NCBI GenBank assembly: GCA_964498965.1
Contig: CAZCJU010000001.1
Location: 38,008 to 102,007, forward strand
DNA: 64,000 bases
Reading direction: 5' to 3'
DNA from: an uncultured Lachnospiraceae bacterium
GTDB lineage: Bacteria > Bacillota > Clostridia > Oscillospirales > CAG-272
Shown here: positions 95 through 21,370 of the stretch, in pieces
Layout: every line of letters begins with the position of its first letter
Position numbering within the stretch: the first letter of the stretch is position 1
The notes under the pieces: model-generated
The model's database searches: none
What the model was told of the DNA's origin: nothing
The model's input: only the letters and a program-made list of their open reading frames with translations
Translations under genes and position numbers: made by a program

Positions 95-1150
95 TTACAT
101 GAGCTGTCCGAACACATCGGACGTGGCAAGCTGTCTTGCCAACTGTGCCGAACCGACAGCCTGATACATCGGGAACGAGCCGAGCAAGCGTATGTCGTGT
201 TGACCTATGCCGCCGGCGGGTGACTTATTACAAAGCAGCCAAGCCTTCGGCAGTATTGCGAGTTCGGCTTTTTCGTCGATTATCTTAATACACGACAAAG
301 CTCTGTCCGTCTTGTCGCATGCCGCATCGGTGCCGTCCGTCACCAACACTATCGAGCTGCAATATCCGAAAAACTCGAATTCCGCCTGCGTTCTCGGAAA
401 TTCCGCGTCTATCACTACGTAATCGTAACAACCGAGCAATTTCAACTCGTTTTGAAGCGTTATGTAGTCCTTTGATCCCATTTCCATCATGTCAAGCGGC
501 ACTCTGACCGAAGAATAATAGTTTACTCCGCACGTATCGTGCTTGACCGTGCTTTGCAACTTCATCGTCCGGTTCGTCTTGTTACTCTTTACGGCATATA
601 TCACGTCGCTGAAATCGAATTGACCGTCACAGGAAAAATACATATCGGCATTTCCGTATATCTGTGCATTGAGGTACAGCACTCTCTGTCCGGCATTCGC
701 AAGAGCGATCGCCGATGCCGCCGCAACCGTCGATGTGCCGACGCCGCCGCACGGTGAGGTAAAAACGATCGTTTTCATCGCACCGTTCTCGATTGCCGCC
801 GCACCCGAAATATTCGGAATATGCTCGGAATATATGCTCAGTATCTGCTTGTATATAAGCTCGCCCTTTTGAAATTTACATATTGCCTTATGCTTGTCGA
901 CAAAGCTTATATCAAGGCTTTCCACCAAATACGCAAAACCGCACCTTTTGGGCAACATATTGGATTCTATTTTGAAATTGTCGCTTGCCAAGAACACGTC
1001 TATCTTTTTCTCTTCAAGGCAGGCACTCGCCGCATCGAGATCGGTAAACGAGTATATTTCCAGCTCGTCGGCGTATTTGTTATTAAACATCGGAACGACA
1101 CGGCGAAGATACGTAGTATCGCTTTCAAGTATCGCAAGCTTGATCTTCAT
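95..1150 (-). CDS. TadZ/CpaE-like protein: receiver-like N-domain fused to a MinD/ParA-type ATPase
   Basis: 351 aa. The N-terminus resembles a response-regulator receiver (KIKLAILESD...IDVFLASD). The central region carries a deviant Walker A (FTSPCGGVGTSTVAAASAIALA) typical of the MinD/ParA/CpaE family. AAGGAGGA RBS upstream. Lies next to a CpaF-type ATPase gene. Confidence 0.7.
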   Translation of the reverse strand: MKIKLAILESDTTYLRRVVPMFNNKYADELEIYSFTDLDAASACLEEKKIDVFLASDNFKIESNMLPKRCGFAYLVESLDISFVDKHKAICKFQKGELIYKQILSIYSEHIPNISGAAAIENGAMKTIVFTSPCGGVGTSTVAAASAIALANAGQRVLYLNAQIYGNADMYFSCDGQFDFSDVIYAVKSNKTNRTMKLQSTVKHDTCGVNYYSSVRVPLDMMEMGSKDYITLQNELKLLGCYDYVVIDAEFPRTQAEFEFFGYCSSIVLVTDGTDAACDKTDRALSCIKIIDEKAELAILPKAWLLCNKSPAGGIGQHDIRLLGSFPMYQAVGSAQLARQLATSDVFGQLM

Positions 1151-1344
1151 ATTTTATTCTGTCCTCCTTTTCACTGCGAAAGCATATGCTTTGCAACCGT
1201 ATTTTTGTAATTATATAATTAACGGCGGTTTAAATGCGGTATTTCGTCAAAATTCGCCCCTCCGATGTAAAAAACAGCTTAACGCACATTAGATACGCTT
1301 TGCCTCGCCCGCCGTACTTTATATGTTAGCCTGTGCGAATTCCT

Positions 1345-1460
1345 TCGTCTTATCCGCCATGCTACCGCATGTCCCCTCTGCCCCTAAAGGGAAAGGCTGT
1401 TTTGATTTTGCCTTTCCATTTTCGGGGAAGGTGTCGGCGAAGCCGACGGATAAGGGCATC
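1345..1460. repeat. REP-like GC-rich hairpin element (inverted pair)
   Basis: Contains cctttccattttcggggaagg followed by gtcggcgaagccgacggataagggc, with an inverted partial copy (cgtcttatccgcc...cccctaaagggaaaggc) just upstream. The same word family occurs at 8 or more other intergenic sites in the window. Confidence 0.7.
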
Positions 1461-1469
1461 GCTCCGTTA

Positions 1470-2702
1470 TCATATTACGGTTTGTATTCCCGACAATTTC
1501 AGTTTAAAATCGTTTTTAAGCTCGTTTTGGGTCCGAACAAGGCTCCCCGAAACCCTTTCGAGTGTGCTGTTTTTATCTTCTTTGAAAACGTACAGCGGAT
1601 TAAGTAAGATTTTTCCGTCCCGACATCCGACCACTTCCGTTATTTCAACGGTTCTTCTCGATTTATCACGCATTCTCGACAAATGGATTATCACATCTAT
1701 CGCCGAGCCTATCTGCTGGCGTATCGCTTCGAGCGGAAGTCCCGAAGCGCCCTGCAACACCATGGTTTCGAGTCGGCTCAACATATCTTCCGTCGAGTTT
1801 GCATGACCGGTCGAAAGAGAACCGTCGTGACCGGTATTCATCGCCTGAAGCATATCGAGTGCTTCCTCGCCTCTTACCTCTCCGACAACGATACGCTCGG
1901 GACGCATACGCAATGACGCTTTTATGAGTTCTCTTATCGTGACCCGCCCCGCACCCGATGCGTTCGCATTACGCGTTTCGAGGCTTACGAGATTATCTAT
2001 GCCCGTTATCTGAAGTTCCGCCGAGTCCTCTATCGTAATGACACGCTCGTCTTTCGGGATAAAATTGGACAATGCGTTGAGGAACGTCGTTTTACCGGAG
2101 CCTGTTCCGCCGCTGATGAATATATTGTATTTCGCTTTGACAAGCAATTCCAGCTTTTCGGCGATCTCCTCGGTTATCGATCCGTATTCGATAAGCTTTT
2201 CTATCGTCATGGGATTTTTGGAAAACTTTCTTATTGTAAGTATCGGGCCGCAAAGGGATATGGGAGGAAGCACGACATTCACACGGGAGCCGTCGGGCAG
2301 ACGTGTATCACATATCGGATTCGCACGATTGACCTCACGTCCCGCCATTCCGACTATACGTTGTATTATGTCTTCCAATTTTCTTTGGCTTTCGAACGCC
2401 GCATCCAGCTTTATAAGTCTTCCGTTTCTTTCTATAAACACGTTTTCCGGGCCGTTTATCATTATTTCCGTGACCGTTTCATCGCCGATTATCGTATCGA
2501 GCAAGCCGAAGCCCCTTATCGAGCTGTACACCTGCTGAACGAGATCCACTCTTGCCTGTACCGAATAATACTGTCCTCTTATATTCTCCTCTACGATGTC
2601 CTCGATCCCCGCCGTCAGCTCTTCGTCGCTAAGCTTACTCAGCTGCAGCTCCTCGGTGACTATTTTCTTTAATTTCGAAACTAAGTCCTTATCGAATTCC
2701 AC
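1470..2702 (-). CDS. cpaF: Tad/Flp-type secretion ATPase (CpaF/TadA family)
   Basis: Walker A GGTGSGKTTFLNAL. Also carries the type II/IV secretion NTPase signature VGEVRGEEALDMLQAMNTGHDGSLSTGHANS. The likely start is GTG at 2702, 8 nt after a GGAGGTG RBS; the maximal ORF starts at TTG 2726. Confidence 0.9.
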   Translation of the reverse strand: MEFDKDLVSKLKKIVTEELQLSKLSDEELTAGIEDIVEENIRGQYYSVQARVDLVQQVYSSIRGFGLLDTIIGDETVTEIMINGPENVFIERNGRLIKLDAAFESQRKLEDIIQRIVGMAGREVNRANPICDTRLPDGSRVNVVLPPISLCGPILTIRKFSKNPMTIEKLIEYGSITEEIAEKLELLVKAKYNIFISGGTGSGKTTFLNALSNFIPKDERVITIEDSAELQITGIDNLVSLETRNANASGAGRVTIRELIKASLRMRPERIVVGEVRGEEALDMLQAMNTGHDGSLSTGHANSTEDMLSRLETMVLQGASGLPLEAIRQQIGSAIDVIIHLSRMRDKSRRTVEITEVVGCRDGKILLNPLYVFKEDKNSTLERVSGSLVRTQNELKNDFKLKLSGIQTVI

Positions 2703-2718
2703 AGACGCTTCACCTCCG

Positions 2719-3486
2719 TTATTCAACCTGTATAACTATAAGCGTGGCATTATCTCCGCCGTTTTTCTTATCGACCTCGGCGAGTATTCGCTTAACAGCC
2801 TCGAAAGCGGTATTTTCCCTGAGTATCCCGTACATTTCTCCGATATTCAGTACGTCGGTAACTCCGTCCGAGCAAAGGACATACATATCTCCCGCACGGA
2901 TATCGCCCTTTGAGATATACGGCAATATGCTCATCTCGGTTTCGTCTATTCCGATATATTGAAGCAGAACGGGCTTTTTTCTTATTCCCATTGCCGTCAA
3001 TATCCGCTCGTCCGTATGATCCTCGGAAATACAGATCATTTTTTTGTCCCTTATTCTGAATATCCTGCTGTCACCGACATTGCAGGCGACCACTTCGTCC
3101 TGTAAAAACCAGACGGCGGCAACCGTCGTACCGACGGCGGACAATTGCTTGCTCTCACGCAGCAGATTCACCTCGTTATTTGCTCTTTCACAGGCGGAAA
3201 ACATAAATTCTCTGCCGGACATCGCCCACTCTTCGAGCTTTTTGTATTCCTCGCCGAACACCTTACTCGAAAGGCAGGATGCCTCCGCACCGCAGCATTC
3301 TCCTCCCATTCCGTCGAACACGGAAAACAGCACCGGCTCGTCCGTCGTACTGCTGCATTTAAGCGGATTTTTCAAACCCGTATTCGGGATCGGAAGTCGC
3401 TTTTTGTTAAAATAGAAATTGTCTTCGTTATTTCCCCGTCCGCAGCCGACAAACGAGCCGCAGGAGGCATTTAAGGTTAAGACCAT
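2719..3486 (-). CDS. PP2C-family Ser/Thr protein phosphatase
   Basis: 255 aa with PPM motifs: GRGNNEDNF, FSVFDGMGGECCGAEAS, NVGDSRIF, LCSDGVTDVL, GGDNATLIVI. Confidence 0.85.
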   Translation of the reverse strand: MVLTLNASCGSFVGCGRGNNEDNFYFNKKRLPIPNTGLKNPLKCSSTTDEPVLFSVFDGMGGECCGAEASCLSSKVFGEEYKKLEEWAMSGREFMFSACERANNEVNLLRESKQLSAVGTTVAAVWFLQDEVVACNVGDSRIFRIRDKKMICISEDHTDERILTAMGIRKKPVLLQYIGIDETEMSILPYISKGDIRAGDMYVLCSDGVTDVLNIGEMYGILRENTAFEAVKRILAEVDKKNGGDNATLIVIQVE

Positions 3487-3502
3487 AGCTTCAACACCGT
3501 TT

Positions 3503-3673
3503 TTAAATCTTCAATAAGGAATTTTCCCCGTCATTAAGCTCGGCAAGCAAATCCGGTATGGGATCGTATCCTCTGCCGAATGACGAACAAAACGCATCGT
3601 CCGAGAGGCGAGGCTTCTTGCCTAAGCTGCGGGTTTCATATATTTCGAGAATAAAATTTTTTAAAGATCGCAT
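3503..3673 (-). CDS. Possible 56-aa small protein between the kinase and the phosphatase
   Basis: Not in the ORF track (below 60 aa). ATG at 3673 lies 8 nt after the kinase stop, and TAA at 3505..3503 lies 16 nt before the PP2C ATG. Translation: MRSLKNFILEIYETRSLGKKPRLSDDAFCSSFGRGYDPIPDLLAELNDGENSLLKI. There is no clear SD, but it fills an otherwise empty 195-bp gap inside an operon. Confidence 0.25.
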   Translation of the reverse strand: MRSLKNFILEIYETRSLGKKPRLSDDAFCSSFGRGYDPIPDLLAELNDGENSLLKI

Positions 3674-3681
3674 TTTTCAAG

Positions 3682-5541
3682 TCAAAATCGTGCGAATATA
3701 TCGGAAGCGACAAGTATTATCGACGCTACCGCACCCGCTCCCGCCGTCACGCACGTTATTACGTACATTATCAGCTTTACGCCGTGCGGCTTCTCGCCGC
3801 TTCTGTAGCCGTATGCCCACACAAATGCGGTAAGAGCGGCTATATCGTAAAATACTTGCCACAATCCCGTTTCAAACGCTCCGTTTGCAAGGCAGTACAC
3901 GTTAAAAAGCCACTGCAGTGCGATCGCATAAACACACAGCACACCGCCGAGCCGCACTTCTCTTTGCGAGATTATGACTATGCCGCCGAAAAGCGTAAGC
4001 GCACCAGCCGCAAGCACGACTATGGCATCGAACGGTATTTCCGTTCTCACGCCGCCGTCAAGCATTGCCGTCGCACCCGTGACCAGCTTACCGAGCGAGA
4101 GAGCCGAAAGAGCCGTGCCGACCGCAAATTTGTTTCGGTCCGATGCCGCTATTGCGAATCCGACGGACAAAAGCGACACACAAACGGATATTTCCGTCGA
4201 GGTCATATCTCCGGTCACCGCAAGCACGACTCCGAGAACGCAAAGCACCGCCGCCATAAATACCGCCGCTATTCTGCATGCCTTGCTCGATTTCGAGGTA
4301 AGGTATGTATCGCTCTGTTTCGAATCGCTTATCGGCAATATCGTCCGCCGTCCGCCCGACGAGCGAACCTCGCCGACTTGATCCCCTTGTCCGTTCGGAT
4401 AAGTCGCACGGCTTCGAGCGTTCTGCGGCACATTCGCATAAGAAACCCGTCCCGCATTCGGGTACGGCGGGGAAGTCATACCGTCCTGTCCGAGGACCGT
4501 TGTGCCGCTGTCAAGCTCATCCACCACAAGACGTCCGTTTGCCGTCATATCGTTCGTCGTGCTTTGGAATATACTGACCGTATCGTTATAACACATTGCT
4601 TCCGATCCGATCTTTCCGTTATCGCCTGTTTGAACGAGTGTATTCCATTCCTCTATCAGTGCGTTCTTAAATTCCGAAGCCGAACGGTATCGCTGTGACG
4701 GTTCGAACGAGCAAGCTTTGACGATGACCTGCCCCAGAGAAGCATTTGCGTTGCACGGCAATTCGAGCGGCTTTCCCGAAAGCCTTTGTGTCAGTGCCTC
4801 CTCGTTGTCCTTATACGAGATCGGTTGCGGATATTTCGGTAAAAACGCCGTTCTGTTATTGTTCAAAAGGGTGTAAAGGACAAGACCGAGGGAATAAATA
4901 TCGACACTTGAGCCGTATTCCTCGCCCTTGTACACTTCCGGAGCCATATAATTCAGCGTACCCTTTCTCGAAAGGTTTGCGTGCGTCGCCTCAAGCTTTC
5001 GCGCTATGCCGAAATCGCCCAGCTTGTATTCTCCGAAGCGTGATATAAATATATTGTCCGGCTTGATATCTCTGTGAACGATATAATTCCGTTCGCATAT
5101 TTCAAGGGCGGAACATATGTCCAAGCCGAGCTTGATCACGTCTTTTTGGGAAAAGCTCGGATTCGATATAAAGCTGTCAAAAGGTGTCAAAAGCTCCATT
5201 CGGATAAATATATCCCACCCGAGTTCTCCCTCATGCTCGACTATCTTGTAATCTTCTATGCCGACTATGTTTTTCGCGCCCTTAAGATTATCCATAAGGG
5301 TTATTTCGTTAAGCAGATTGTCCACGATCCCTCTGAAATAATCGTACACTTCGCTGTCGCTCATGCCCTGCGTTTTGGCGTATTTGATCTCCTGTTGGCT
5401 TTTCGGAATCGTAATGACCTTGACGGCAGACCAAAACGTTCTGCCGTACTCAACTCTTTTAGCACGGTATACCTTGCCGAACGAGCCTTCGCCGAGGACG
5501 CATTCCTCGTTCCACTCCGGCCACACCTGATTTATATTCAT
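3682..5541 (-). CDS. Hanks-type Ser/Thr protein kinase with a polytopic C-terminal membrane domain
   Basis: Kinase motifs GEGSFGKVY, VAVK-like AVKVI, HRDIKPDNIF, DFG and GTLNYMAPE. The C-terminal ~200 aa contains about 6 hydrophobic segments. The preferred start is ATG 5541 (GAGGAAA RBS); the maximal ORF starts at 5574. Confidence 0.9.
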   Translation of the reverse strand: MNINQVWPEWNEECVLGEGSFGKVYRAKRVEYGRTFWSAVKVITIPKSQQEIKYAKTQGMSDSEVYDYFRGIVDNLLNEITLMDNLKGAKNIVGIEDYKIVEHEGELGWDIFIRMELLTPFDSFISNPSFSQKDVIKLGLDICSALEICERNYIVHRDIKPDNIFISRFGEYKLGDFGIARKLEATHANLSRKGTLNYMAPEVYKGEEYGSSVDIYSLGLVLYTLLNNNRTAFLPKYPQPISYKDNEEALTQRLSGKPLELPCNANASLGQVIVKACSFEPSQRYRSASEFKNALIEEWNTLVQTGDNGKIGSEAMCYNDTVSIFQSTTNDMTANGRLVVDELDSGTTVLGQDGMTSPPYPNAGRVSYANVPQNARSRATYPNGQGDQVGEVRSSGGRRTILPISDSKQSDTYLTSKSSKACRIAAVFMAAVLCVLGVVLAVTGDMTSTEISVCVSLLSVGFAIAASDRNKFAVGTALSALSLGKLVTGATAMLDGGVRTEIPFDAIVVLAAGALTLFGGIVIISQREVRLGGVLCVYAIALQWLFNVYCLANGAFETGLWQVFYDIAALTAFVWAYGYRSGEKPHGVKLIMYVITCVTAGAGAVASIILVASDIFARF

Positions 5542-5572
5542 AAATTTCCTCGTTTCTTTTGCCTGCATAGAC

Positions 5573-5630
5573 ATTTTAACCTAAAAAACGCCTGTTTTCA
5601 CGCAAATGTAATTTTCCGACCCGTAAATGT
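5573..5630 (-). promoter_or_regulatory. Candidate LytTR-regulator box plus promoter upstream of the kinase/PP2C/cpaF genes
   Basis: Minus strand reads ACATTTACG-GGTCGGAAAATT-ACATTTGCG: two 9-bp direct repeats (5630..5622 and 5609..5601) with a 12-bp spacer and 21-bp period. These are followed by a weak -35 (GTGAAA) and a -10 TAAAAT (5578..5573). The layout matches the known ComE/AgrA-type binding-site architecture, and a LytTR regulator gene lies immediately upstream. Confidence 0.45.
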
Positions 5631-5648
5631 AATTTTTCATCGATTTTT

Positions 5649-6953: not shown

Positions 6954-7660
6954 TGTTCTTCACCGAGATATGATATAAATTTGATCTTCGCATCCTTTAA
7001 ATTCGGCTTACTTATCGGAAGAACGCTTCCGTCCGACAGATAAAACTCCTTGTTCGTCCTCTCGGTGATGTATTTCATGTTTATCAAAAAGCTCTTATGA
7101 CTTCGTATAAAAGTGCCTCCCAGCTGCTGCTGAATAACGTCCATTTTTTCGTAGATCTCGTTCTTTTTACCGTCTGCCATGTACAGTATGAGTTTTCGTC
7201 CTCGGCTTTCCAGATACATTATCTCCTTGCGGTACAATATCAGCTCCGAACCGTTCGTTTTTATGACTATAGCGTCGGCTCTGTCCGCCTCGATCTCGCA
7301 GCTTACCTTGGTTATTGCCGCACTCAAGCTGTTTTCGTTTATCGGTTTGAGAAGAAAATATGCCGGATTCGTTTCGAAAATAGTTGTCGCATAGCTGATA
7401 ACACCCGTCAGATAAATGACCTTGAGCTTCGGATAGTATTTCTGCAGACGCTTGACGGTTTCTATGCCGTTTCCGTCCTTCAGATTTATATCCATAATAA
7501 GAAGATCGGGAACATGTTCGTTAATCTCGATCATACCGATAAGCTCACCGCAACGGTTCATCGTGATGACCTTGTACTTGTCCCCGAAGTGCTTCATTAT
7601 GAAAAATTTCAGAAATTCCGTTATATTGATGTCATCGTCACATACAAAAATTTCGAGCAT
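6950..7660 (-). CDS. LytTR-family response regulator (AgrA/ComE-like)
   Basis: 236 aa. Receiver domain (MLEIFVCDDD...DLLIMDINLKDGNGIE) plus a C-terminal LytTR-type DNA-binding domain (FIRSHKSFLINMKYI). Confidence 0.9.
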   Translation of the reverse strand: MLEIFVCDDDINITEFLKFFIMKHFGDKYKVITMNRCGELIGMIEINEHVPDLLIMDINLKDGNGIETVKRLQKYYPKLKVIYLTGVISYATTIFETNPAYFLLKPINENSLSAAITKVSCEIEADRADAIVIKTNGSELILYRKEIMYLESRGRKLILYMADGKKNEIYEKMDVIQQQLGGTFIRSHKSFLINMKYITERTNKEFYLSDGSVLPISKPNLKDAKIKFISYLGEEQ

Positions 7661-7714
7661 GATCTTTTACTTCTTTCATTAATGCTGTGTCTGTGTGGTT
7701 TTTTTCGCATCGCC

Positions 7715-13800: not shown

Positions 13801-14457
13801 ATCGACATCGTATGTATAATACAAATTGTACGGGTCAAGCGTAACGGCGATAAAATCGTTCTTGCCTACACTCTGCTCCGTCTTGCCGTTTTCGATACTC
13901 GTTTTTCCCGAAAGCGTGAGTTTACCTCGATTGTTTACGGTGTATATCGTCATCGCACCCGACTTTAATGTAACGTTCTCAAGCGACAGCTCTCCGTAGT
14001 TTGCGATTCCGACCTTTATATGCGACGCTTCATCGTCGGGACATACCAGCGTACCGTTTTCGATATGCAGCTTGCTGTACGCCAAGACACGTATACCGTT
14101 TGTTTCCGTTCCCTTGGAACCGACGGCGGGACGAAGCGTAAGCGTATTTCCGCCGAGGTCAAGCTCTATGTTTTTTGTCACCGAGCCGTTCGCCAGTCCG
14201 ACATCGAACCCGCATTCCGTATTTGCCGTAAGTTCGATCCTCGTCGGACTGTCCGGAAGGACACGGTTCTCGCCCGACTGTGCCGCATTTATCGCTTCGG
14301 ACAGTGTTTCGTAGCTGTTATCGCCTATTTTCGCAACGCCCGTTTCCGCTTTTACGTTGACGAAAAGCACTGCCGCAGGCACCGAGCCGACGGCGATCGC
14401 CGCCGCCAGCAGTATTGCCGACAGTTTTATCGGCAGACTGTTTTTAAATTTTATCAT
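7843..14457 (-). CDS. Giant (2204 aa) secreted, C-terminally membrane-anchored, repeat-rich surface protein (putative adhesin)
   Basis: N-terminal signal peptide (KLSAILLAAAIAVGSVPAAV). Two beta-helix-like modules (GGNTLTL...NG.RV...KL.I.NGT). Four Big_2-like Ig repeats (e.g. KVTYKLISGEEIAEINEETGSLVFKKSGKATVEATI). Three ~280-aa super-repeats (LEITYSEGFVERILESLTFGIY / LKIEYGSSLSDKLTEAVSFGFY / LTVTYSRSVTDRVLEAITFGYY). C-terminal TM segment plus SRKKKKKKNA tail. ATGA overlap with the upstream gene. Confidence 0.85.
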   Translation of the reverse strand: MIKFKNSLPIKLSAILLAAAIAVGSVPAAVLFVNVKAETGVAKIGDNSYETLSEAINAAQSGENRVLPDSPTRIELTANTECGFDVGLANGSVTKNIELDLGGNTLTLRPAVGSKGTETNGIRVLAYSKLHIENGTLVCPDDEASHIKVGIANYGELSLENVTLKSGAMTIYTVNNRGKLTLSGKTSIENGKTEQSVGKNDFIAVTLDPYNLYYTYDVDASLICDSEEVSVGTVQIERYARTSDNKGKVKLDISAGSFDRIIEDGNSSVDTEFEIDGGTFGAYDAGEFESLIAAANAGSDGERPEKPVTIRLADNIALEKELDIGDYYGKEPKNMVFELNGKQLTLCTAGNTGACVRKNSKLCIKNGTVLCGTKYGIENDGELTLDGAELKTGDKTRFTVNNRCKLALSGSTEVYNGYSDRSGTSFAISVDPLNGNDAYIICGGENVKIGNVHLENTDEVKGKIFLDISNGTFGKLTQTDDVDNVTGIIGGKFASDVGGYIDNEIYGAVYDEATQLYSVEPLKELTDLKFGDEDPDDVFVGDEYTNKATSESSDGKVTYKLISGEEIAEINEETGSLVFKKSGKATVEATIAKTDKYKSATARYTVSAVRKDQSPDFKFERPDPTVTYKDGLTYTYTPVNAGGSGKLTYKITSGDDVADIDPETGELTIKKAGFVTVEVTKEADDTYEAGSAEYTLEVTKAEQEKPDVSVAGDVVYNNEKQSVLTVSGGSGDGELSYEIVSGDDVAEIDSETGEILTKKAGEITIGVTKAEDDRYKAITVEYTLTVLRAVPEFYVSDAELKYGMTEYEIKTDDRSDNDGKYTYLVGENDIGASVDENGKITLVDSEGKVGSVIVTVKRTADERYSELEKSFMLTVSYINEEEVPTPTVSGERNDGSEWYVGEAIVIPPEGWEISTSDKLNGNEWSESLVLGDDGINNITVYLKKDGNISQAIEIENIKIDRKAPENLEITYSEGFVERILESLTFGIYSSDTVTVTLKAFDATSGIDHLTYDIGNGEVTVNADACTVNADGSVEYSFDIPAQFRNRVKMTATDKAGSSSDCVQTDRILVVDTLSPILETEYSVNGKELLGDVIYGSDDVLVVFKIKEDNFDLRQSEPSFKVNDAFTALTWEYDGENGVWIAEYTLSNEGEYELLLDFTDESGNGLTVNGTRTAYGKKVIVDKTAPEGLKIEYGSSLSDKLTEAVSFGFYKHKVTVTVTANDGISGVDSFEWSYVRQDGVSGTYSSGKSGRIGADDITYDENGTVASATFTVDAQARGYITVKATDKAGNDTEQNEKNRKIIVVDSISPVVGIKYETESVNTKARFTDGSGKDVSTLDKATHAYYNGNIKATITVNEASFFEGMRASDGVIHNIGIKLTKTNNDGGKTVYEYLPEGSLGKYENAVKKYFNWSGDGDRHSLVISFDKDGDYVLELEYTDMSGNEADISSYDNGTARKYYKSDIFTVDKTAPIVSVRYGNTNAVNEIDGRKYFDKEQSVTVTVTEHNFRASDFAATVTAKNVLGNDVKISDFAAYMSNEANWNKNGDTHTVTVRFSADANYTFGYSYSDTARNAAAKYGEDKFTVDTTPPEKLTVTYSRSVTDRVLEAITFGYYNAEVTVTVSAEDETSGVYGFAYSYVKSAGVSDVNEEMINAVVKEADIITDGKKYSSTFVVPKDAMKTESQFNGTVRFTAYDRAENSAEKADKHRVIVDNIAPTMNVVYNEPVYASDGVKYYSSDIEVKLVINEANFYSEDVDVKVNGENVGVKWENESADVHNGTFKLTDDGNYTVTVEYTDRSDNKMESYTSERLTLDTVAPTVKMSGPKQNSANKGEKLGITITADDANINGDTFLPSLTVLVAGKDGTYEKKNVPFADMKCVREGNTYELKLENLADDGVYALVCTVKDLAGNTCSTLTLDDGIAYEEVDFSVNRNGSAFTADKSTDKLLEQYYVYGVNEDMVIEEVNTDPVDTYVVKLNGKELAEGSDYISSLTQSENEWSKRIYVISKDLFAEEGEYRITVESTDKAGAAAYSDVKGLNAAFTVDKTAPTVTVSGIENGGRYRVGEQTVTAIPNDDGGRLYSFKAVVLTSDGEPLCDENGNDISVRFEKSGDEFLTYLSENGGKVTFTVPEGLENRVRIICCDSSDDGNGHANEYNAEYTKVTVSQSRWVIYYANKPLLYGSIGGAVLALTALVLLIVSRKKKKKKNA

Positions 14458-15008
14458 TTTCGATCTTCCCCCTTCGTTTCGGAGCTTTTCGCACGTTCTT
14501 TTTTCATTTCGCCGAATATTTTTTCTTTATTCGTAATATAATAAAATATTTTTCCGTTCAATGTGCAGTGCATACAAAACGACAGCACGAACAACGACAG
14601 CAGAATGTAGCAGATATAGCCGGTGCCTTTCGTCAATATCAAAGCCGCAACGAAGCCCGCCAAGTTCAGTACCGCGGCGATATCGGCACACACCGCACCC
14701 GGGTTTTCGAAAAACGATATGATCCCCGGTCTTCTTTTCACTCTTGACCGCCGTATACGGTTTTCGGCGTACCACGCCTTTCTTTTATGCGACAAAACGC
14801 ATTGAACGATCGCCGTCCCGACAAGGCATGACCAAAACATGATCCCCGCCGCAAACGTGTAGACCGAAATGCCGTTCACCGCTTCCTTGCCGTCGATGGG
14901 CATGAGCGAAAAGCTTGCCGACAGTCCCGTGAAAAGCAATATCGATATTGCGAACAATATGTACTCGCTTCGCTTTCCCTTGGCTTTGTTTTTCGCTGTT
15001 CGGCTCAT
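14454..15008 (-). CDS. Small polytopic membrane protein (about 4 TM), function unknown
   Basis: 184 aa with four hydrophobic segments. ATGA start/stop overlaps with both neighbours indicate translational coupling. Confidence 0.6.
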   Translation of the reverse strand: MSRTAKNKAKGKRSEYILFAISILLFTGLSASFSLMPIDGKEAVNGISVYTFAAGIMFWSCLVGTAIVQCVLSHKRKAWYAENRIRRSRVKRRPGIISFFENPGAVCADIAAVLNLAGFVAALILTKGTGYICYILLSLFVLSFCMHCTLNGKIFYYITNKEKIFGEMKKERAKSSETKGEDRK

Positions 15009-15589
15009 TGTACCGCCTCCGCGTAGATTATCTCGTCGGTATGTATGTACGTTATCTCGTATTCTATCTCAAACACCTCCGCACACGGAGTGCCGAGTAT
15101 TGTCGTTTCGGAGGTCGGGTGAGCGTCGAGATCGAGCGTACCGACGGCAAACGAGTCAAGCAAAGTTGTTTCCGAAGCGGGGCTTTCGTCGAGATCTACG
15201 GTCGTTTTTCCGTATGCGTCGAGCAAGGTCGTTTCGTCGCTCTCGCCGTTCGGCATCGTATATGCTCCCAAGCTCTGCGTGCCTATTTTCGATGTACCTG
15301 CGGCGTGAGTCTGCGTTCCGTGCCTTTGCACGACCTCGCCCGAGGACGAGATCTTATCGGTAAGCTTACCTCTCGCCTCATTAAACGCACTGCCCTTGTA
15401 ATTTTTTTCGCCCGTTTCCTCGTTTCGGCGGCGAATGTCCTTTATCGCCTTTTTCGCCGTTGCTCCCGAAAGATCGCCCATCACCTTAGGTATTTTAAGT
15501 GCGATGAAGATTATCAGCGTTGCGGCGAGCGATATTCCGCACAGAACGGCGGAGCCGATAAATATGTATCTGTAAATTTCGTATGTCAT
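15005..15589 (-). CDS. N-terminally anchored membrane protein with a triple ETT(L/I)L repeat
   Basis: 194 aa. Single N-terminal TM (IFIGSAVLCGISLAATLIIFIAL). The C-terminus carries repeats of about 21 aa: DETTLLDAYGKTTVDLD / SETTLLDSFAVGTLDLD / SETTILGTP. GGAGGA RBS 6 nt upstream. Confidence 0.6.
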   Translation of the reverse strand: MTYEIYRYIFIGSAVLCGISLAATLIIFIALKIPKVMGDLSGATAKKAIKDIRRRNEETGEKNYKGSAFNEARGKLTDKISSSGEVVQRHGTQTHAAGTSKIGTQSLGAYTMPNGESDETTLLDAYGKTTVDLDESPASETTLLDSFAVGTLDLDAHPTSETTILGTPCAEVFEIEYEITYIHTDEIIYAEAVQ

Positions 15590-15601
15590 TTCCGTCCTCC
15601 G

Positions 15602-17269
15602 TTACGGATTGACGGATTCGGCTTTTTTCACCGTTTCCGCAATCTTCGTTTTAAGTGTGCTTATGTCTTCCTCAAGCACCGATATGTTTATTTTTTCGGC
15701 TTCCGACAGTATCAGATTCAGCAGCTGCGCAACTTCTCCCGGTTCGGTAACTTCAAGCAACGGTGCTATATCCGATTCCGCCATGTCGCTTATCTCGTTC
15801 CACACCTGAAGCTTGGCGTCCACTCCGTCGAAGCCGTCGGCTTTTTCTTTCAGCTCGCACATCATGCCCCACAACCGTTTGTATTCCTCGTACATCTTTT
15901 CCGTCTGCTTTATCTTCGAGCCGTTATATTGATTTATCAGCTCAAGACAGCTTGAAATGTCACAGTAGATCCCGGCTATCGGATACTTTTCGCGTGCTTC
16001 GGCAAACCAATTATACGCATTGGCATACCTGTCGCCGGTGCTTTTGCCGTCATAGTAGAACAAAAACGACCGACCTATCTCGTAGCACACGTCGCAATAT
16101 CCGTCGCCGTCGGATTTTTTCAGTTGTTTTAAGACTTCCCTGCTCTGCGAAAAGCCGTCGTCGTCCTTTTCGTCAAGCCCTATCCGAAGCTTGGTCAGCT
16201 GCTGTCCCTCCTCCGGTGTCAACAGAAAATCGTCCGTAAGAAATTTATTCAACTGCAAATACGCTTCCGTTTTCGTCGGGTCGGTCAGTATCGCTTCGTA
16301 ATAGTCCTCCGTCGAATCGGCGGATCTTAAAATAACCTCGTAATTTTCGCTTTTCTTGTTCTCCGAGCATATATAGCCCCAAACGGAAACGGCGGCGAGG
16401 ATAAGCGTGAGGATCGCCGTAAATATGAACAGTCCGAGCTTTCTTTTCTGCTTCTTCTTATGTATGTCGTCTATTTCCTCGTAATGCTCGAGTGCGTACA
16501 TAAGCTCCGCACACGACTGATATCTGTCCGCGGGATTTCTCTGCGTGCATTTTTGTATTATCCGCTCCAAGCCTCCCGACAATGTGGGGTTTATTTCCCT
16601 TATCGGCTTAAGCTCGTAGGGCGGTTCGCTCGGATTTCTGCCGGTCACCAAATGATACAGCGTCGTTCCCAAACAGTATATATCCGTCCTTGCATCGGTT
16701 TGTCCCATACCGCCGAATTGCTCCGGTGCGGCATATCCGACCGTGCCTAAGCAGGTCGTATCCGCCAGATTTTTTTCCTTGTACTCTCTTGCCGTACCGA
16801 AATCTATGAGCATTATGTTGCCGTCGGGTTTGAGCATTATGTTTGCCGGCTTCATGTCCCTGTATATGATCGACGGCGAACGACTGTGCAGATAGCCCAA
16901 TACGTCGCACAGCTGTTTTGCCCAGAGGATCACGGTTTCCTGAGGTTGCGCTCCGAATTCCTCCAACGTTTTGTTCAGCGAATTTCCCTGAATGTAGTCC
17001 ATTATGATGATAAACGAGTCTTCCGTGTCTATAACGTCGATAATACTCGGCAGATTCGGGTGATCCAGCTTTTTCAAAATGTCGGTTTCGGCAATAAGTC
17101 CCTGCTTGACCGATTCGAAATCAAGCACACCGTCCTTTCGTACCTCCTTGACCGCCCATTGTTTATTCGCCTTTTCGTTCATGGCGAGATAAACAACGCT
17201 CATTCCGCCTTGACCGACCTTGTTCAGTATCTTGTATTTTCCGTCGACAAGCGATCCTATTTCAAGCAT
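15602..17269 (-). CDS. Hanks-type Ser/Thr protein kinase, single-pass, with a helical extracytoplasmic domain
   Basis: 555 aa. Motifs GQGGMSVVY, WAVKEV, YRDMKPANIML, DFGTA and GTVGYAAPEQ. One TM segment (LGLFIFTAILTLILAAVSVWGYI), then ~230 aa of helical-repeat-like sequence. No PASTA repeats recognised. Confidence 0.9.
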   Translation of the reverse strand: MLEIGSLVDGKYKILNKVGQGGMSVVYLAMNEKANKQWAVKEVRKDGVLDFESVKQGLIAETDILKKLDHPNLPSIIDVIDTEDSFIIIMDYIQGNSLNKTLEEFGAQPQETVILWAKQLCDVLGYLHSRSPSIIYRDMKPANIMLKPDGNIMLIDFGTAREYKEKNLADTTCLGTVGYAAPEQFGGMGQTDARTDIYCLGTTLYHLVTGRNPSEPPYELKPIREINPTLSGGLERIIQKCTQRNPADRYQSCAELMYALEHYEEIDDIHKKKQKRKLGLFIFTAILTLILAAVSVWGYICSENKKSENYEVILRSADSTEDYYEAILTDPTKTEAYLQLNKFLTDDFLLTPEEGQQLTKLRIGLDEKDDDGFSQSREVLKQLKKSDGDGYCDVCYEIGRSFLFYYDGKSTGDRYANAYNWFAEAREKYPIAGIYCDISSCLELINQYNGSKIKQTEKMYEEYKRLWGMMCELKEKADGFDGVDAKLQVWNEISDMAESDIAPLLEVTEPGEVAQLLNLILSEAEKINISVLEEDISTLKTKIAETVKKAESVNP

Positions 17270-17281
17270 TACCCATCCCCC

Positions 17282-18049
17282 TTAAAACGTTCTTATCGTT
17301 ATGACGGATATGTTGTCGCGTTCGCCGCGTTGCTTGTTCAATTCGATAAGCCCGAATCCGCCCCTGTCCATGGCAGCTCTGTCGGTCAGTACCTCCGGTC
17401 GCAGAGCCTCGAATATCTCATCGGGGCTTATCTCGTGCCTGAAGCCGTCCGAGCAAAGCATATAAGTGGCGTTTTGAAGCACATGACCGGTGAAAAAGTC
17501 GGGATATACCTCCTGCGACGCTCCTATGCATTGCAGAAGCACGCTTCTTCTTTCGTCGATCTCCGCTTGCTCGGGTGTCATATTGCCCAATGCGACCTCG
17601 CGTGCGACAAAAGTCTGATCGTACGTCAATTGCGTGAGCGTCGAGCCTATTTCATAGGCCCGGGAATCTCCGACGTTCATTATGCAGTAATCCGTTTGCG
17701 TGAGAAGCATTGCGACGGCGGTCGTGCCGAGCCTTACACCTTGTCTGCCGCCGTAGGTCCCTATCACGTTGTTTTGACCGATGAGTATTCTCTCCCACTG
17801 TGCCTTGATCGTGTCGGCATCTATTCCGTTCCGACATAACGTCGGCAGCTCGTCGATCACCCATCGATCGAATGCCCTTATTACCGATGCACTCGCCACC
17901 TCGCCTTTCGCAAGTCCGCCCATTCCGTCACATAAAACAGCAAAAGACAGCCTGCCCGCCGCAGTGTTTATCACCTTGACGGATAAGCTGTCCTGATTTG
18001 TACTTTTCACGTTTCCGATATCCGTATTCGCCGAAACAATAAAATCCAT
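17282..18049 (-). CDS. PP2C-family Ser/Thr protein phosphatase
   Basis: PPM motifs TDIGNVKSTNQDS, VLCDGMGGLAKGEVAS, NVGDSRAY, LCSDGF and ERDNISVI. Start taken as ATG 18049 (MDFIVSANTD...). The 34-codon upstream extension in the ORF track lies in a repeated non-coding cassette. Confidence 0.85.
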   Translation of the reverse strand: MDFIVSANTDIGNVKSTNQDSLSVKVINTAAGRLSFAVLCDGMGGLAKGEVASASVIRAFDRWVIDELPTLCRNGIDADTIKAQWERILIGQNNVIGTYGGRQGVRLGTTAVAMLLTQTDYCIMNVGDSRAYEIGSTLTQLTYDQTFVAREVALGNMTPEQAEIDERRSVLLQCIGASQEVYPDFFTGHVLQNATYMLCSDGFRHEISPDEIFEALRPEVLTDRAAMDRGGFGLIELNKQRGERDNISVITIRTF

Positions 18050-21358: not shown

Positions 21359-21370
21359 TCGATCCCTCCT

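What the first reader, a model, noticed from the sequence alone, without database searches (positions are those of the whole stretch)
95..18049. 18-kb co-directional supercluster coupling two Hanks-kinase/PP2C pairs, an Agr-like two-component system, a giant adhesin and Tad-type ATPases
**Layout**
All genes are on the minus strand with very short or overlapping junctions. In order:
- PP2C, STK, a 194-aa ETT-repeat protein, a 184-aa membrane protein and a 2204-aa surface protein. The three junctions from the 194-aa gene onward are ATGA overlaps; the PP2C/STK and STK/194-aa junctions are 12-nt gaps containing an RBS.
- A LytTR regulator and an AgrC-like kinase.
- A polytopic STK, a possible small ORF, a PP2C, TadA/CpaF (16-nt gap containing the RBS), and a TadZ/CpaE-like protein, continuing off the window.

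**Why it stands out**
Two separate eukaryotic-type kinase/phosphatase pairs bracket an adhesin and lead directly into a Tad-family secretion ATPase. This suggests phospho-Ser/Thr control of surface-fibre or adhesin deployment, layered on a peptide-sensing-type two-component system. I do not recognise it as a described system. No PASTA or FHA domains were seen, and the TadA-before-TadZ order is atypical.
Basis: partly seen in the sequence, partly recalled or inferred. Interest (0 to 1): 0.7.

Follow-up and report, generated by a model that had tools for sequence, protein, structure and literature searches.

The report
Tad pilus locus interleaved with T7SS
The 18-kb gene chain is real and conserved, but it is the front half of a roughly 40-kb locus in uncultured gut Clostridia where a Tad pilus system sits inside a type VII secretion system, apparently linked by two kinase/phosphatase pairs that share one phospho-threonine motif.

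Summary
**Observation.** Confirmed.

**Left flank.** It is Tad: TadB, TadC, an Flp pilin and a prepilin peptidase follow TadZ.

**Conservation.** The full order is kept in relatives at 63-80% protein identity.

- In three related lineages the Tad genes run straight into a type VII secretion core: a DUF6382-FHA protein, an FHA-bearing EssC, YukD and two WXG100 proteins.
- The first phosphatase, the first kinase, the 194-aa protein and the 2204-aa "adhesin" match, by architecture, the TseF, TseD, TseH and TseI components of the T7SSe type described in 2024.

**Possible link between the parts.** An (N)ETT[V/L/I]L threonine motif occurs in the 194-aa protein (2-4 copies), in the second kinase's linker, and twice just before the FHA domain of the DUF6382-FHA protein. 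This suggests a shared phospho-threonine/FHA code.

**Transcriptional control.** A LytTR-type direct repeat sits directly upstream of the second kinase, phosphatase and CpaF unit.

**Verdict.** New variant of known kinds. Gene content is shown. Functional coupling of Tad and T7SS is inferred. Interest 0.6.

The parts
17282..18049 (-). PP2C_A: PPM/PP2C Ser/Thr phosphatase (255 aa; an alternative ATG at 18151 gives 289 aa). TseF-like.
   Evidence: Pfam PP2C_2. NCBIfam Stp1/IreP-like, 4e-45, below the curated cutoff. The DGxGG, GDSR, SDG and DN motifs are readable in the translation. Orthologs of 255-299 aa sit at the same position.
15602..17269 (-). STK_A: Hanks kinase with one TM helix (278-296) and an all-helical ectodomain of about 255 aa. 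TseD-like.
   Evidence: Pkinase 1e-48. TM prediction. The AF2 model shows residues 300-555 helical with block pLDDT mostly 80-94. More than 120 ortholog clusters at 73-90% identity.
15005..15589 (-). p194: N-terminal TM helix, basic juxtamembrane region, three ETT[L/I]L repeats and a conserved C-terminal FxIEYEITYIHT motif. Candidate phospho-threonine scaffold. TseH-like by architecture.
   Evidence: Alignment with orthologs carrying 2-4 repeats. Family of 1322 representative clusters, of which 126 of the best 150 carry 1-8 (N)ETT[VLI]L copies. No Pfam or NCBIfam model matches.
14454..15008 (-). p184: 4-TM membrane protein of unknown function with a conserved FSFCMHCxLNGK motif. Translationally coupled on both sides.
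   Evidence: TM prediction. Ortholog alignment at 40-45% identity. ATGA overlaps. Not among the published T7SSe components.
7843..14457 (-). 2204-aa surface protein: Sec signal peptide, variable N-terminal region, Ig-like repeats and one C-terminal TM helix followed by a K-rich tail. TseI-like envelope-spanning or target-recognition protein.
   Evidence: Weak Big_2, Big_3_3, Big_13 and DUF7743 hits. TM helices at 15-33 and 2177-2195. Orthologs of at least 1860 (cut by a contig end) to 3808 aa at the same position. The C-terminal half is 49-57% identical and the N-terminal 520 aa only 16-41%. No PDB sequence relative.
6950..7660 (-). LytTR-family response regulator.
   Evidence: Response_reg plus LytTR. 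77% identical orthologs. Absent from L082.
5649..6953 (-). Histidine kinase with 6 TM helices and a GHKL HATPase_c_5 domain (AgrC-type domain architecture).
   Evidence: Pfam. TM prediction. ATGA overlap with the response regulator.
5604..5634 (-). Direct repeat AATTACATTT-N11-AATTACATTT (21-nt period) in the 74-nt HK/STK_B spacer. Candidate LytTR box and promoter for STK_B, PP2C_B and CpaF.
   Evidence: the only match in the window with up to 3 mismatches allowed, against 0.01 expected by chance. Identical in the same-species contig L001. Only a single ATTACAT element is seen in L094 and L095, and a different repeat in L084.
3682..5574 (-). STK_B: Hanks kinase, a linker with invariant TTND and TTVL motifs, and a polytopic membrane C-terminus.
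   Evidence: Pkinase 5e-39. At least 4 TM helices from residue 435. Ortholog alignment shows T339, T340, N341, D342 and T358, T359, V360, L361 invariant.
2719..3486 (-). PP2C_B: PPM/PP2C phosphatase, 16 nt upstream of CpaF.
   Evidence: PP2C_2 and PP2C. 63-66% identical orthologs, always between STK_B and CpaF.
1470..2702 (-). CpaF/TadA secretion ATPase (GTG start), placed upstream of TadZ.
   Evidence: T2SSE 2e-60. TIGR03819 TadA family 4.5e-92. 85% identical orthologs.
1151..1469 (-). CpaF/TadZ spacer (113-319 nt across relatives) with a conserved T-run, TTGAC and TATAAT block. Probable internal promoter for TadZ and the downstream genes.
   Evidence: Alignment of five spacers. The 46-aa ORF here is not conserved.
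95..1150 (-). TadZ: atypical receiver domain plus a ParA/MinD-type ATPase.
   Evidence: PF21194 2e-45 and AAA_31. PDB 3FKQ at E=3e-71 over the full length.
1..73 (-). Start of the TadB-like gene, cut by the window edge.
   Evidence: Sequence. The same-species contig L001 continues with a 284-aa membrane protein, T2SSF TadC, an Flp1_like pilin and an A24 peptidase.

Best explanation
Window 1-18151 is the upstream half of a conserved, co-directional composite locus of about 38-40 kb. A Tad (Flp) pilus operon is embedded inside a T7SSe-type type VII secretion locus.

**Gene order, taken from the window plus orthologous loci.**
- T7SSe-type accessory genes: PP2C_A (TseF-like), STK_A (TseD-like), p194 (TseH-like), p184 and the giant Ig protein (TseI-like).
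- The LytTR response regulator and its histidine kinase.
- STK_B, PP2C_B and CpaF.
- The Tad genes: TadZ, TadB, TadC, Flp, the A24 peptidase, a WG-repeat protein, a Flg_new protein, a protein of 219-289 aa, a DUF5702 protein (a domain that lies at the C-terminus of TadG-type proteins in L002 and L003) and a TadE/Flg_new pseudopilin.
- The T7SS core: a DUF6382-FHA protein (TseJ-like), an FHA-bearing EssC, YukD and two WXG100 proteins.

**Proposed mechanism (inferred).**
- The two membrane Hanks kinases phosphorylate threonines in a shared (N)ETT[V/L/I]L motif. The motif is carried by the membrane scaffold p194, by STK_B's own juxtamembrane linker, and by the TseJ-like protein next to its own FHA domain.
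- FHA domains of the TseJ-like adaptor and of EssC read these phospho-threonines. That would gate assembly or activity of the T7SS and of the Tad motor.
- The two PP2C phosphatases reset the switch.
- The LytTR two-component system adds transcriptional control of the STK_B, PP2C_B and CpaF unit through a direct-repeat box.
- The 2204-aa protein would be the envelope-spanning, target-recognising component, not a free-standing adhesin.
For: **Shown.**
- Domain calls and topology for all window genes.
- Tad genes on the left flank of the same species.
- The same order from PP2C_A through the Tad genes in orthologous contigs: L084-L090 are overlapping pieces of the same contigs, and L091-L096 add further lineages.
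- 16 contigs of at least 25 kb carry both STK_A and TadZ orthologs, judged by matching contig lengths.
- The T7SS core lies directly downstream of the Tad genes in relatives with 74%, 71% and 65% TadZ identity.
- EssC keeps the GR, SxxH and NGT FHA signature. The TseJ-like FHA domain keeps SRSH and the N residues but has GK in place of GR.
- Architectural match to the published T7SSe components TseD, TseF, TseH, TseI and TseJ.
- Motif [EQDG]TT[VLI][LI]: three copies in p194 and one in STK_B out of only five hits among all window ORFs of at least 150 aa. It is invariant in STK_B orthologs. There are 2-4 copies in p194 orthologs and in 126 of 150 family representatives. Two copies lie about 30 residues before the FHA domain of the TseJ-like proteins.
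- A LytTR-type direct repeat that is unique in the window.

**From established knowledge.**
- FHA domains bind pT-x-x-(I/L/D).
- GarA and OdhI use an ETTS motif next to their own FHA domain as a phospho-switch.
- The T6SS is gated by PpkA, PppA and Fha1.
Against: - The window stops at TadZ. A T7SS core in this very genome is inferred from relatives only.
- TseH/TseI identity rests on architecture, not on sequence comparison with reference T7SSe proteins, and EssC phylogeny was not done.
- A TseK-like zinc-ribbon protein appears only in L097. p184 has no published counterpart.
- In other Clostridia (L003, L004, L014) a kinase, a PP2C, a DUF6382-FHA protein and a signal-peptide/C-terminal-TM Ig protein flank Tad genes, with no EssC, YukD or WXG100 within 10 kb. 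These "T7SSe accessory" parts may therefore belong to Tad.
- No phosphorylation, binding or transcription data exist.
- The consensus promoter and terminator scan was not above shuffles.
- The LytTR box sequence is not conserved in L084.
Confidence: 0.55

Rival explanations
1. This is a Tad-centred system. Both kinase/phosphatase pairs, p194, p184, the giant Ig protein and the DUF6382-FHA proteins form a regulatory and adhesive module of the Tad pilus. The T7SS core downstream is an unrelated neighbour.
For: - L003: a PQQ-repeat ORF cut at its start by the locus edge and 46% identical over 70% of its length to the L014 kinase (presumably its propeller part), an Ig/CarboxypepD_reg protein with a signal peptide and C-terminal TM helix, a ParA protein, DUF6382-FHA, PP2C, a zinc-ribbon protein, then CpaF, TadB and TadC.
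- L014 (Dorea): a kinase precedes TadZ, CpaF and the rest of the Tad genes, followed by DUF6382-FHA and PP2C.
- FHA-protein hits lie downstream of CpaF in 16 of the roughly 28 nearest Firmicute Tad loci, and none of the 80 loci has EssC, YukD or WXG100 within 10 kb.
Against: - In the window's own clade the T7SS core abuts the Tad genes in all three lineages examined.
- The ETTVL motif and a canonical pThr-binding FHA domain are on the TseJ-like protein and on EssC.
- The same accessory set was defined as T7SSe core at loci for which no Tad genes are reported (PMC11217815).
- The 10-kb flanks may simply be too short to reach a T7SS in L003, L004, L008 and L014.
Confidence: 0.25
2. This is an accreted neighbourhood. 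Three or four independent surface or secretion modules (a kinase-regulated surface protein, an orphan TCS, Tad, T7SS) sit side by side without functional coupling.
For: - There are four substantial intergenic gaps of 74-319 nt, and hairpins after the giant gene.
- The TCS is dispensable: it is absent from L082.
- Garrett et al. could not decide whether Tad/T7SS adjacency is meaningful.
- The upstream junction is a variable integration site.
Against: - Order and orientation are conserved across lineages whose proteins have diverged to 55-80% identity.
- A rare motif is shared by proteins of three of the modules.
- CpaF has been moved out of the canonical TadZ-CpaF order into a unit with STK_B and PP2C_B.
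- Kinase, PP2C and FHA genes intermix with Tad in several families.
Confidence: 0.13
3. The whole block is cargo of a mobile or integrative element.
For: Next to PP2C_A the window has a prophage-like block, L087-L090 have a serine recombinase, relaxase and ParB, and L091-L093 have a tyrosine integrase.
Against: - L096 has housekeeping genes (argS, murI-like, holB-like) directly upstream and no integrase.
- The mobile genes differ between genomes while the locus stays the same.
- GC content is flat at 0.46-0.50 across 1-24 kb.
Confidence: 0.05

Closest known systems
T7SSe (and the related T7SSd and T7SSj) of Garrett, Higginson & Palmer 2024, PMC11217815
   Same: - A membrane Hanks kinase with a helical ectodomain (TseD).
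- A PPM phosphatase (TseF).
- A single-TM protein with a disordered cytoplasmic tail (TseH).
- A large Ig-repeat protein with a Sec signal and a C-terminal TM helix (TseI).
- A DUF6382-FHA protein (TseJ).
- An EssC with pThr-competent FHA domains, YukD, and a pair of WXG100 proteins.
   Different: - Here the accessory genes and the core genes are separated by about 20 kb holding a LytTR TCS, a second kinase/phosphatase pair and a complete Tad operon.
- There is an extra 4-TM protein (p184).
- A zinc-ribbon TseK-like protein appears in only one relative.
- The hosts are uncultured gut Clostridia. None of the six gut-clostridial names searched (Ruminococc-, Blautia, Dorea, Lachnospir-, Eubacterium, Oscillibacter) appears in the held text of that paper's supplements.
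T7SSg and T7SSh, reported as always adjacent to Tad genes (same paper)
   Same: Physical adjacency of a T7SS and a full Tad gene set in Bacillota. The authors left its meaning open.
   Different: T7SSg and T7SSh have an EssC without FHA domains and lack the TseD, TseF, TseH, TseI and TseJ set. Here the EssC has FHA domains and Tad is interleaved rather than adjacent.
T7SSf TsfV (TadZ-like ARD plus ATPase) and TsfJ
   Same: L097 carries a ParA/AAA_31 ATPase of 349 aa and two DUF6382-FHA proteins immediately before YukD and EssC.
   Different: T7SSf has no associated kinase and no Tad genes. The ARD of the L097 protein was not demonstrated.
Tad/Flp pilus systems; Eubacterium rectale TadZ (PDB 3FKQ)
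   Same: CpaF, TadZ (E=3e-71 to 3FKQ), TadB, TadC, an Flp1_like pilin, an A24 peptidase and TadE/TadG-type pseudopilins.
   Different: - CpaF precedes TadZ and is transcriptionally grouped with a kinase and a phosphatase.
- The TadE-type pseudopilin carries Flg_new and Ig modules.
- A WG-repeat protein is present.
Threonine-phosphorylation gating of the T6SS (PpkA, PppA and Fha1 in P. aeruginosa; TssL-Fha in Agrobacterium). Own knowledge, and cited in PMC11217815.
   Same: A membrane Hanks kinase, a PP2C and an FHA reader control assembly of a secretion machine.
   Different: A different machine in Gram-negative hosts, with no repeated-motif scaffold protein.
GarA/OdhI ETTS-FHA phospho-switch of Actinobacteria (own knowledge; OdhI is the best NCBIfam FHA hit)
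   Same: An E-T-T motif lies a short distance N-terminal to the protein's own FHA domain, as in the TseJ-like proteins here.
   Different: GarA and OdhI are small metabolic regulators. Here the motif is ETTVL, it is duplicated, and it is also displayed on a membrane scaffold and on a kinase.
Archaellum regulatory network of Sulfolobus (ArnA FHA, ArnB vWA, ArnC/D kinases, PP2A; PMC7472852, PMC5300886)
   Same: Hanks-type kinases, a phosphatase and an FHA protein control a type-IV-filament machine.
   Different: An archaeal system in which control is mainly of expression and the genes are not interleaved with the machine's own genes.
Agr-type and other LytTR two-component systems
   Same: A 6-TM HATPase_c_5 kinase, a LytTR regulator, and a pair of direct repeats at a 21-nt period as candidate binding site.
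   Different: No AgrB or AgrD, and the signal is unknown. The TCS is absent from one orthologous locus.

Membership tests
Tad/Flp (type IVc) pilus system | CpaF/TadA secretion ATPase | tested here: met
   T2SSE 2e-60. TIGR03819 4.5e-92.
Tad/Flp (type IVc) pilus system | TadZ/CpaE (atypical receiver domain plus ParA/MinD ATPase) | tested here: met
   PF21194 2e-45. 3FKQ at E=3e-71.
Tad/Flp (type IVc) pilus system | TadB/TadC platform proteins, Flp pilin and a dedicated prepilin peptidase | tested here: met
   They lie off the window but are on the same-species contig L001 (TadZ 100% identical): a 284-aa membrane protein, T2SSF, Flp1_like at 3e-14 and a weak A24 hit. A24 is clear in orthologs.
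Tad/Flp (type IVc) pilus system | TadE/TadG-type pseudopilins | tested here: met
   Seen in orthologs only: TadE plus Flg_new_2 proteins. The clade's 570-580-aa DUF5702 proteins share that domain with proteins in L002 and L003 that also carry the TadE/G-like 'Tad' domain.
T7SSe (Garrett et al. 2024) | EssC/TseC ATPase with N-terminal pThr-competent FHA domains | tested here: met
   Seen in orthologous loci only: FHA, Yop-YscD_cpl and 2x FtsK_SpoIIIE, with the GR, SGHH and STNGT signature. Not visible in the window.
T7SSe (Garrett et al. 2024) | Two non-identical WXG100 proteins plus a YukD-like protein | tested here: met
   Orthologous loci L098, L099 and L100 have WXG100 proteins of 100 and 99 aa and an 83-aa YukD-like protein. 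Not visible in the window.
T7SSe (Garrett et al. 2024) | TseD: 1-TM Hanks kinase with a helical extracellular C-terminus. TseF: PPM phosphatase. | tested here: met
   STK_A and PP2C_A. This is architecture only. There was no sequence comparison with reference TseD or TseF.
T7SSe (Garrett et al. 2024) | TseH: single TM helix with an unstructured cytoplasmic region. TseI: Sec signal, Ig-like repeats and a C-terminal TM helix. | tested here: inconclusive
   The architectures of p194 and the 2204-aa protein fit. Homology to reference proteins could not be tested because no reference sequences were available. The NTTRR-F1 name reported for TseH was not recovered in NCBIfam.
T7SSe (Garrett et al. 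2024) | TseJ (DUF6382 plus FHA) | tested here: met
   Orthologous loci L097, L098 and L100.
T7SSe (Garrett et al. 2024) | TseK (1-TM zinc-ribbon protein) at all loci | tested here: inconclusive
   A zinc-ribbon membrane protein occurs only in L097. None was called in L098 or L100. p184 is a 4-TM protein without a zinc ribbon.
T7SSe (Garrett et al. 2024) | EssC falls in the TseC clade of the EssC/EccC tree, which is the paper's primary criterion | not tested
Agr quorum-sensing system | AgrB processing enzyme and AgrD propeptide next to AgrC/AgrA | tested here: not met
   Only the HATPase_c_5 kinase and the LytTR regulator are present. Flanking ORFs give no AgrB hit.
PASTA kinase / Stp1 pair (PknB/Stk1) | Extracellular PASTA repeats | tested here: not met
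   No PASTA domain in STK_A or STK_B. NCBIfam PknB_PASTA_kin matches the kinase domain only and falls below the cutoff.

The most novel reading that the evidence does not exclude
The Tad pilus and the T7SS in this clade are two arms of one contact-dependent machine. Pilus-mediated contact, sensed by the two membrane kinases, would be converted into phospho-threonines on a repeated NETTVL code. The code is displayed by a previously unnamed, widespread membrane-scaffold family (p194-like, more than 1300 clusters at 50% identity). FHA domains would read that code to fire T7 secretion and to control the pilus motor at the same site.
Probability: 0.25. Interest if true: 0.85.

Novelty: new variant of a known kind. 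Interest (0 to 1): 0.6.

Why it matters
- T7SS variants carrying kinases, phosphatases and FHA proteins were catalogued only in 2024. None has been tested experimentally, and the meaning of Tad/T7SS adjacency was explicitly left open.
- This locus gives the strongest genomic argument so far that the two machines are linked. Tad sits inside the T7SS locus, and CpaF has been relocated into a kinase/phosphatase unit.
- One rare threonine motif is shared by a membrane scaffold, a kinase and an FHA adaptor. That yields directly testable predictions: which residues are phosphorylated, and which FHA domains bind them.
- The locus also points to a large uncharacterised protein family (p194-like NETTVL-repeat proteins) as candidate phospho-scaffolds.
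- The hosts appear to be abundant but uncultured gut Clostridia. The system could bear on colonisation and interbacterial antagonism in the gut.

Tried and rejected
- Two metagenome-contig scans, using the TadE/Flg_new protein and a DUF5702 alignment to walk downstream, found nothing. Downstream context was obtained through a homolog search plus contig look-ups instead.
- The window's own 102-kb NCBI contig could not be retrieved. Only a 12.3-kb Logan contig of the same species was returned. Exact-sequence look-up gave no organism names.
- The consensus promoter and terminator scan was not above shuffles and placed no terminator in the intergenic gaps.
- NCBIfam gave only generic kinase, phosphatase, ParA and FHA names, and no T7SS-specific or NTTRR-F1 hit.
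- The PDB sequence search with the giant protein gave no hits.
- The giant protein's N-terminus is too divergent among orthologs to justify a structure prediction.
- The 56-aa ORF (3503-3673) and the 46-aa ORF (1319-1459) are rejected as genes. They have no Pfam hit and are not called or conserved in relatives, where the equivalent gaps are 10-17 nt and 113-190 nt.
- The 10-nt tandem repeat upstream of PP2C_A is not conserved in relatives.
- The mobile-element-cargo idea is rejected because L096 has housekeeping flanks.
- Literature searches for a Tad system with a Hanks kinase or FHA protein, or for DUF6382, returned only the 2024 T7SS paper.

Full report
**1.

All genes are on the minus strand:
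- PP2C_A, 17282-18049
- STK_A, 15602-17269
- a 194-aa protein, 15005-15589
- a 184-aa protein with 4 TM helices, 14454-15008
- a 2204-aa protein, 7843-14457
- a LytTR response regulator, 6950-7660
- a 6-TM HATPase_c_5 histidine kinase, 5649-6953
- STK_B with a polytopic C-terminus, 3682-5574
- PP2C_B, 2719-3486
- CpaF, 1470-2702
- TadZ, 95-1150

The 12-nt RBS-containing gaps, the three ATGA overlaps and the 16-nt gap before CpaF are all as described.

Corrections:
- CpaF starts with GTG.
- Four junctions are not short: 182, 74, 195 and 319 nt.
- TadZ is complete. The gene cut by the window edge is the next one, with its ATG at 73.

Both kinases keep the catalytic Lys, the (H/Y)RD motif and DFG. 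Both phosphatases keep the DGxGG, GDSR, SDG and DN motifs. These are readable in the translations.

**2. The left flank is Tad, and the whole order is conserved**

A Logan contig with an identical TadZ (L001) continues with a 284-aa membrane protein, a T2SSF TadC, an Flp1_like pilin and the start of an A24 peptidase.

TadZ and STK_A each have more than 120 ortholog clusters, at 63-84% and 73-90% identity respectively. Sixteen contigs of at least 25 kb carry both, judged by matching contig lengths.

Contig look-ups show the same order in several lineages:
- PP2C_A, STK_A, a protein of 172-194 aa, a protein of 169-184 aa, and a giant Ig protein of at least 1860 (cut by a contig end) to 3808 aa
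- the response regulator and histidine kinase, which are missing in L082
- STK_B, PP2C_B, CpaF, TadZ, TadB, TadC, Flp and the A24 peptidase
- a WG_beta_rep protein, a Flg_new protein, a protein of 219-289 aa, a DUF5702 protein, and a TadE/Flg_new_2 protein

L085 and L088 are overlapping pieces of one 154,827-bp contig, so the two halves are physically linked.

**3. What lies beyond the window in relatives: a T7SS**

Walking downstream from the TadE-like gene gave these results:

| Locus | TadZ identity to window | Genes after the Tad genes |
|---|---|---|
| L100 | 74% | DUF6382+FHA (558 aa), EssC (1517 aa; FHA, Yop-YscD_cpl, 2x FtsK_SpoIIIE), YukD-like (83 aa), WXG100 (100 aa), WXG100 (99 aa) |
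| L098/L099 | 71% | the same set, plus a Big_2 protein |
| L097 | 65% | two DUF6382+FHA proteins, a zinc-ribbon membrane protein, a ParA/AAA_31 ATPase, YukD, and EssC with FHA |

Garrett, Higginson & Palmer 2024 (PMC11217815) define T7SSe by these components:
- TseA1 and TseA2 (WXG100)
- TseB (YukD)
- TseC (EssC with pThr-competent FHA domains)
- TseD (1-TM kinase with a helical ectodomain)
- TseF (PPM phosphatase)
- TseH (1 TM helix and a disordered cytoplasmic tail)
- TseI (Sec signal, Ig-like repeats and a C-terminal TM helix)
- TseJ (DUF6382+FHA)
- TseK (1-TM zinc-ribbon protein)

The window's first five genes fit this set by architecture:
- PP2C_A fits TseF.
- STK_A fits TseD. It has one TM helix at 278-296, and its ectodomain is all-helical in an AF2 model with block pLDDT mostly 80-94.
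- p194 fits TseH.
- The 2204-aa protein fits TseI. It has a signal peptide and a single C-terminal TM helix at 2177-2195.
- p184 has no published counterpart.

The "giant adhesin" and the first kinase/phosphatase pair are therefore most economically read as T7SSe-type accessory components. They are separated from their core by the TCS, STK_B, PP2C_B and the Tad operon.

**4. A shared threonine motif ties the parts together**

- p194 has three ETT[L/I]L repeats. Its orthologs have 2-4 copies between a conserved TM/basic N-terminal region and a conserved C-terminal FxIEYEITYIHT motif.
- STK_B's linker contains invariant TTND and TTVL motifs.
- The TseJ-like proteins carry two ETTVL copies about 30 residues before their own FHA domain.
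- Among all window ORFs of at least 150 aa, the pattern [EQDG]TT[VLI][LI] occurs five times, and four of those are in p194 and STK_B.
- EssC keeps the canonical GR, SxxH and NGT FHA residues. The TseJ-like FHA domain keeps SRSH and the N residues but has GK instead of GR.
- p194 belongs to a large family with no matching Pfam or NCBIfam model. It has 1322 representative clusters at E<=1e-3. Of the best 150, 126 carry 1-8 copies, with the consensus (A/S/G)-N-E-T-T-V-L.

From established knowledge, FHA domains prefer pT-x-x-(I/L/D), and GarA/OdhI uses an ETTS motif next to its own FHA domain as a switch. That these threonines are phosphorylated and read by the FHA domains is inference.

**5. Transcriptional layer**

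- The 74-nt HK/STK_B spacer holds AATTACATTT-N11-AATTACATTT, a 21-nt period. This is the geometry typical of LytTR sites. It is the only such pair in the window even with 3 mismatches allowed, against 0.01 expected by chance.
- The box is identical in L001. Only a single ATTACAT element remains in L094 and L095, and L084 has a different repeat.
- The CpaF/TadZ spacer is always 113-319 nt and has a conserved T-run, TTGAC and TATAAT block.
- Two hairpins follow the giant gene.

I infer four transcription units:
- PP2C_A through the giant gene
- RR and HK
- STK_B, PP2C_B and CpaF
- TadZ onwards

The generic promoter and terminator scan was uninformative.

**6. Wider comparison**

The CpaF-anchored scan of species-representative genomes found these closest CpaF relatives:
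- Faecousia (77%)
- an unnamed MAG and a Lachnospiraceae MAG (71% each)
- Blautia caecimuris (68%)
- Dorea and Coprococcus (66% each)

Where TadZ is detected there, the order is TadZ-CpaF. The window's clade has therefore moved CpaF upstream, next to STK_B and PP2C_B.

Kinase, PP2C and FHA genes recur around these Tad loci:
- Dorea L014 has a kinase with a PQQ propeller, then TadZ, CpaF and the rest of the Tad genes, then a WG/TPR protein, DUF6382-FHA and PP2C.
- L003 has a PQQ-repeat ORF cut at its start by the locus edge and 46% identical to the Dorea kinase, presumably that kinase's propeller part. It is followed by an Ig/CarboxypepD_reg protein with a signal peptide and C-terminal TM helix, ParA, DUF6382-FHA, PP2C, a zinc-ribbon protein and CpaF.
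- FHA-protein hits lie downstream of CpaF in 16 of the roughly 28 nearest Firmicute loci.

None of the 80 loci has EssC, YukD or WXG100 within 10 kb. This is the main argument for the rival view that these accessory genes belong to Tad. The 10-kb flanks may be too short to settle it.

**7. Mechanism proposed**

Shown: gene content, order, conservation, topology and motifs.

Inferred:
- STK_A senses through its helical ectodomain, and STK_B is anchored by a polytopic domain. Both phosphorylate ETTxL threonines on p194, on STK_B itself and on the TseJ-like protein.
- FHA domains of the TseJ-like protein and of EssC dock on these sites. This gates T7SS assembly or activity and, through the STK_B, PP2C_B and CpaF unit, the Tad motor.
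- The PP2Cs reset the switch.
- The LytTR TCS controls expression of STK_B, PP2C_B and CpaF.
- The giant protein has a hypervariable N-terminal region (16-41% identity, against 49-57% for the C-terminal half). It would span the wall and recognise targets.

**8. Rivals**

| Rival | Confidence |
|---|---|
| Tad-centred module with an incidental T7SS | 0.25 |
| Mere accretion of independent modules | 0.13 |
| Mobile-element cargo | 0.05 |

The cargo idea is weak. A different mobile gene set (prophage, recombinase with relaxase, or integrase) abuts PP2C_A in different genomes, and L096 has housekeeping genes there. The junction is a variable site rather than an element boundary.

**9. Novelty and limits**

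The accessible literature gives only the 2024 T7SS survey for DUF6382 and for Tad with a kinase or FHA protein. That survey reports Tad adjacency for T7SSg and T7SSh only and leaves it unexplained. None of the six gut-clostridial names searched (Ruminococc-, Blautia, Dorea, Lachnospir-, Eubacterium, Oscillibacter) appears in the held text of its supplements.

I therefore rate this a new variant of known kinds.

Limits:
- The T7SS core is not seen in this genome itself.
- TseH and TseI identity is architectural only.
- There is no EssC phylogeny.
- There are no experimental data.
Sources call two orthologs "Ruminococcus sp." and "Lachnospiraceae bacterium" MAGs.

Noticed in passing
window 18141-18229: A 10-nt tandem repeat (TACGCCATCA, 8.9 copies, 93% matches) lies 92 nt upstream of the PP2C_A ATG at 18049. 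It overlaps the alternative ATG at 18151. It is absent upstream of the orthologous PP2C_A genes in L087, L091 and L096.
   Followed up: partly
window 7768-7794, 18509-18534, 37353-37376: The GC-rich hairpin AAGCCTTC-N(8-11)-GAAGGCTT occurs three times, against 0 expected in shuffles. Two copies sit just after the stop codons of the giant gene and of the AMP-binding gene at 18553-20253. The third, at 37353-37376, sits in the gap after the stop of the glycosyltransferase gene (37391-39199). This may be a REP-like or terminator hairpin family.
   Followed up: partly
window ~20400-31000: A prophage-like block lies next to the cluster: an Amidase_3+LysM endolysin (22339-23376), portal-like (27533-29368) and terminase-like (29176-30483) ORFs, and a glycine-rich tail-like protein (21371-22129). 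In orthologous loci the same junction holds a serine recombinase, relaxase and ParB block, or a tyrosine integrase, or housekeeping genes.
   Followed up: partly
window 15005-15589 and P0365-P0513: The p194 family is large (1322 clusters at 50% identity with E<=1e-3). It has a fixed architecture: a TM helix, a conserved basic region, 0-8 NETTVL repeats and a C-terminal IEYEITFIHT motif. No Pfam or NCBIfam model matched it.
   Followed up: partly
window 12898-14457 (N-terminal 520 aa of the 2204-aa protein): The N-terminal region is only 16-41% identical among orthologs, while the C-terminal half is 49-57% identical. Ortholog length ranges from at least 1860 aa (cut by a contig end) to 3808 aa. 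This is the pattern expected of a diversifying, exposed recognition domain.
   Followed up: partly
window 1319-1459 and 3503-3673: Small ORFs of 46 aa and 56 aa lie in the CpaF/TadZ and STK_B/PP2C_B spacers. They have no Pfam hit and are not conserved in relatives. The 195-nt STK_B/PP2C_B gap is specific to this species, against 10-17 nt elsewhere.
   Followed up: yes
L094 5537-6004: One relative has an extra 155-aa ORF between the histidine kinase and STK_B. L082 lacks the TCS altogether and has an 877-nt gap there instead.
   Followed up: no
window 55237-58151: Two adjacent proteins (526 and 438 aa) have N-terminal zinc ribbons. Their function is unknown and no link to the cluster was established.
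   Followed up: no
window 18553-20253 and 40781-42544: Two AMP-binding (acyl-CoA synthetase-like) genes are present. The one next to PP2C_A is not part of the conserved locus in relatives.
   Followed up: partly
L002-L081 (CpaF-anchored loci): A WG_beta_rep (often with TPR) protein and a DUF5702 (TadG-type) protein accompany the clostridial Tad loci that were annotated (L002, L003, L014 and the window's clade). FHA-protein hits lie downstream of CpaF in 16 of the roughly 28 nearest Firmicute loci.
   Followed up: partly
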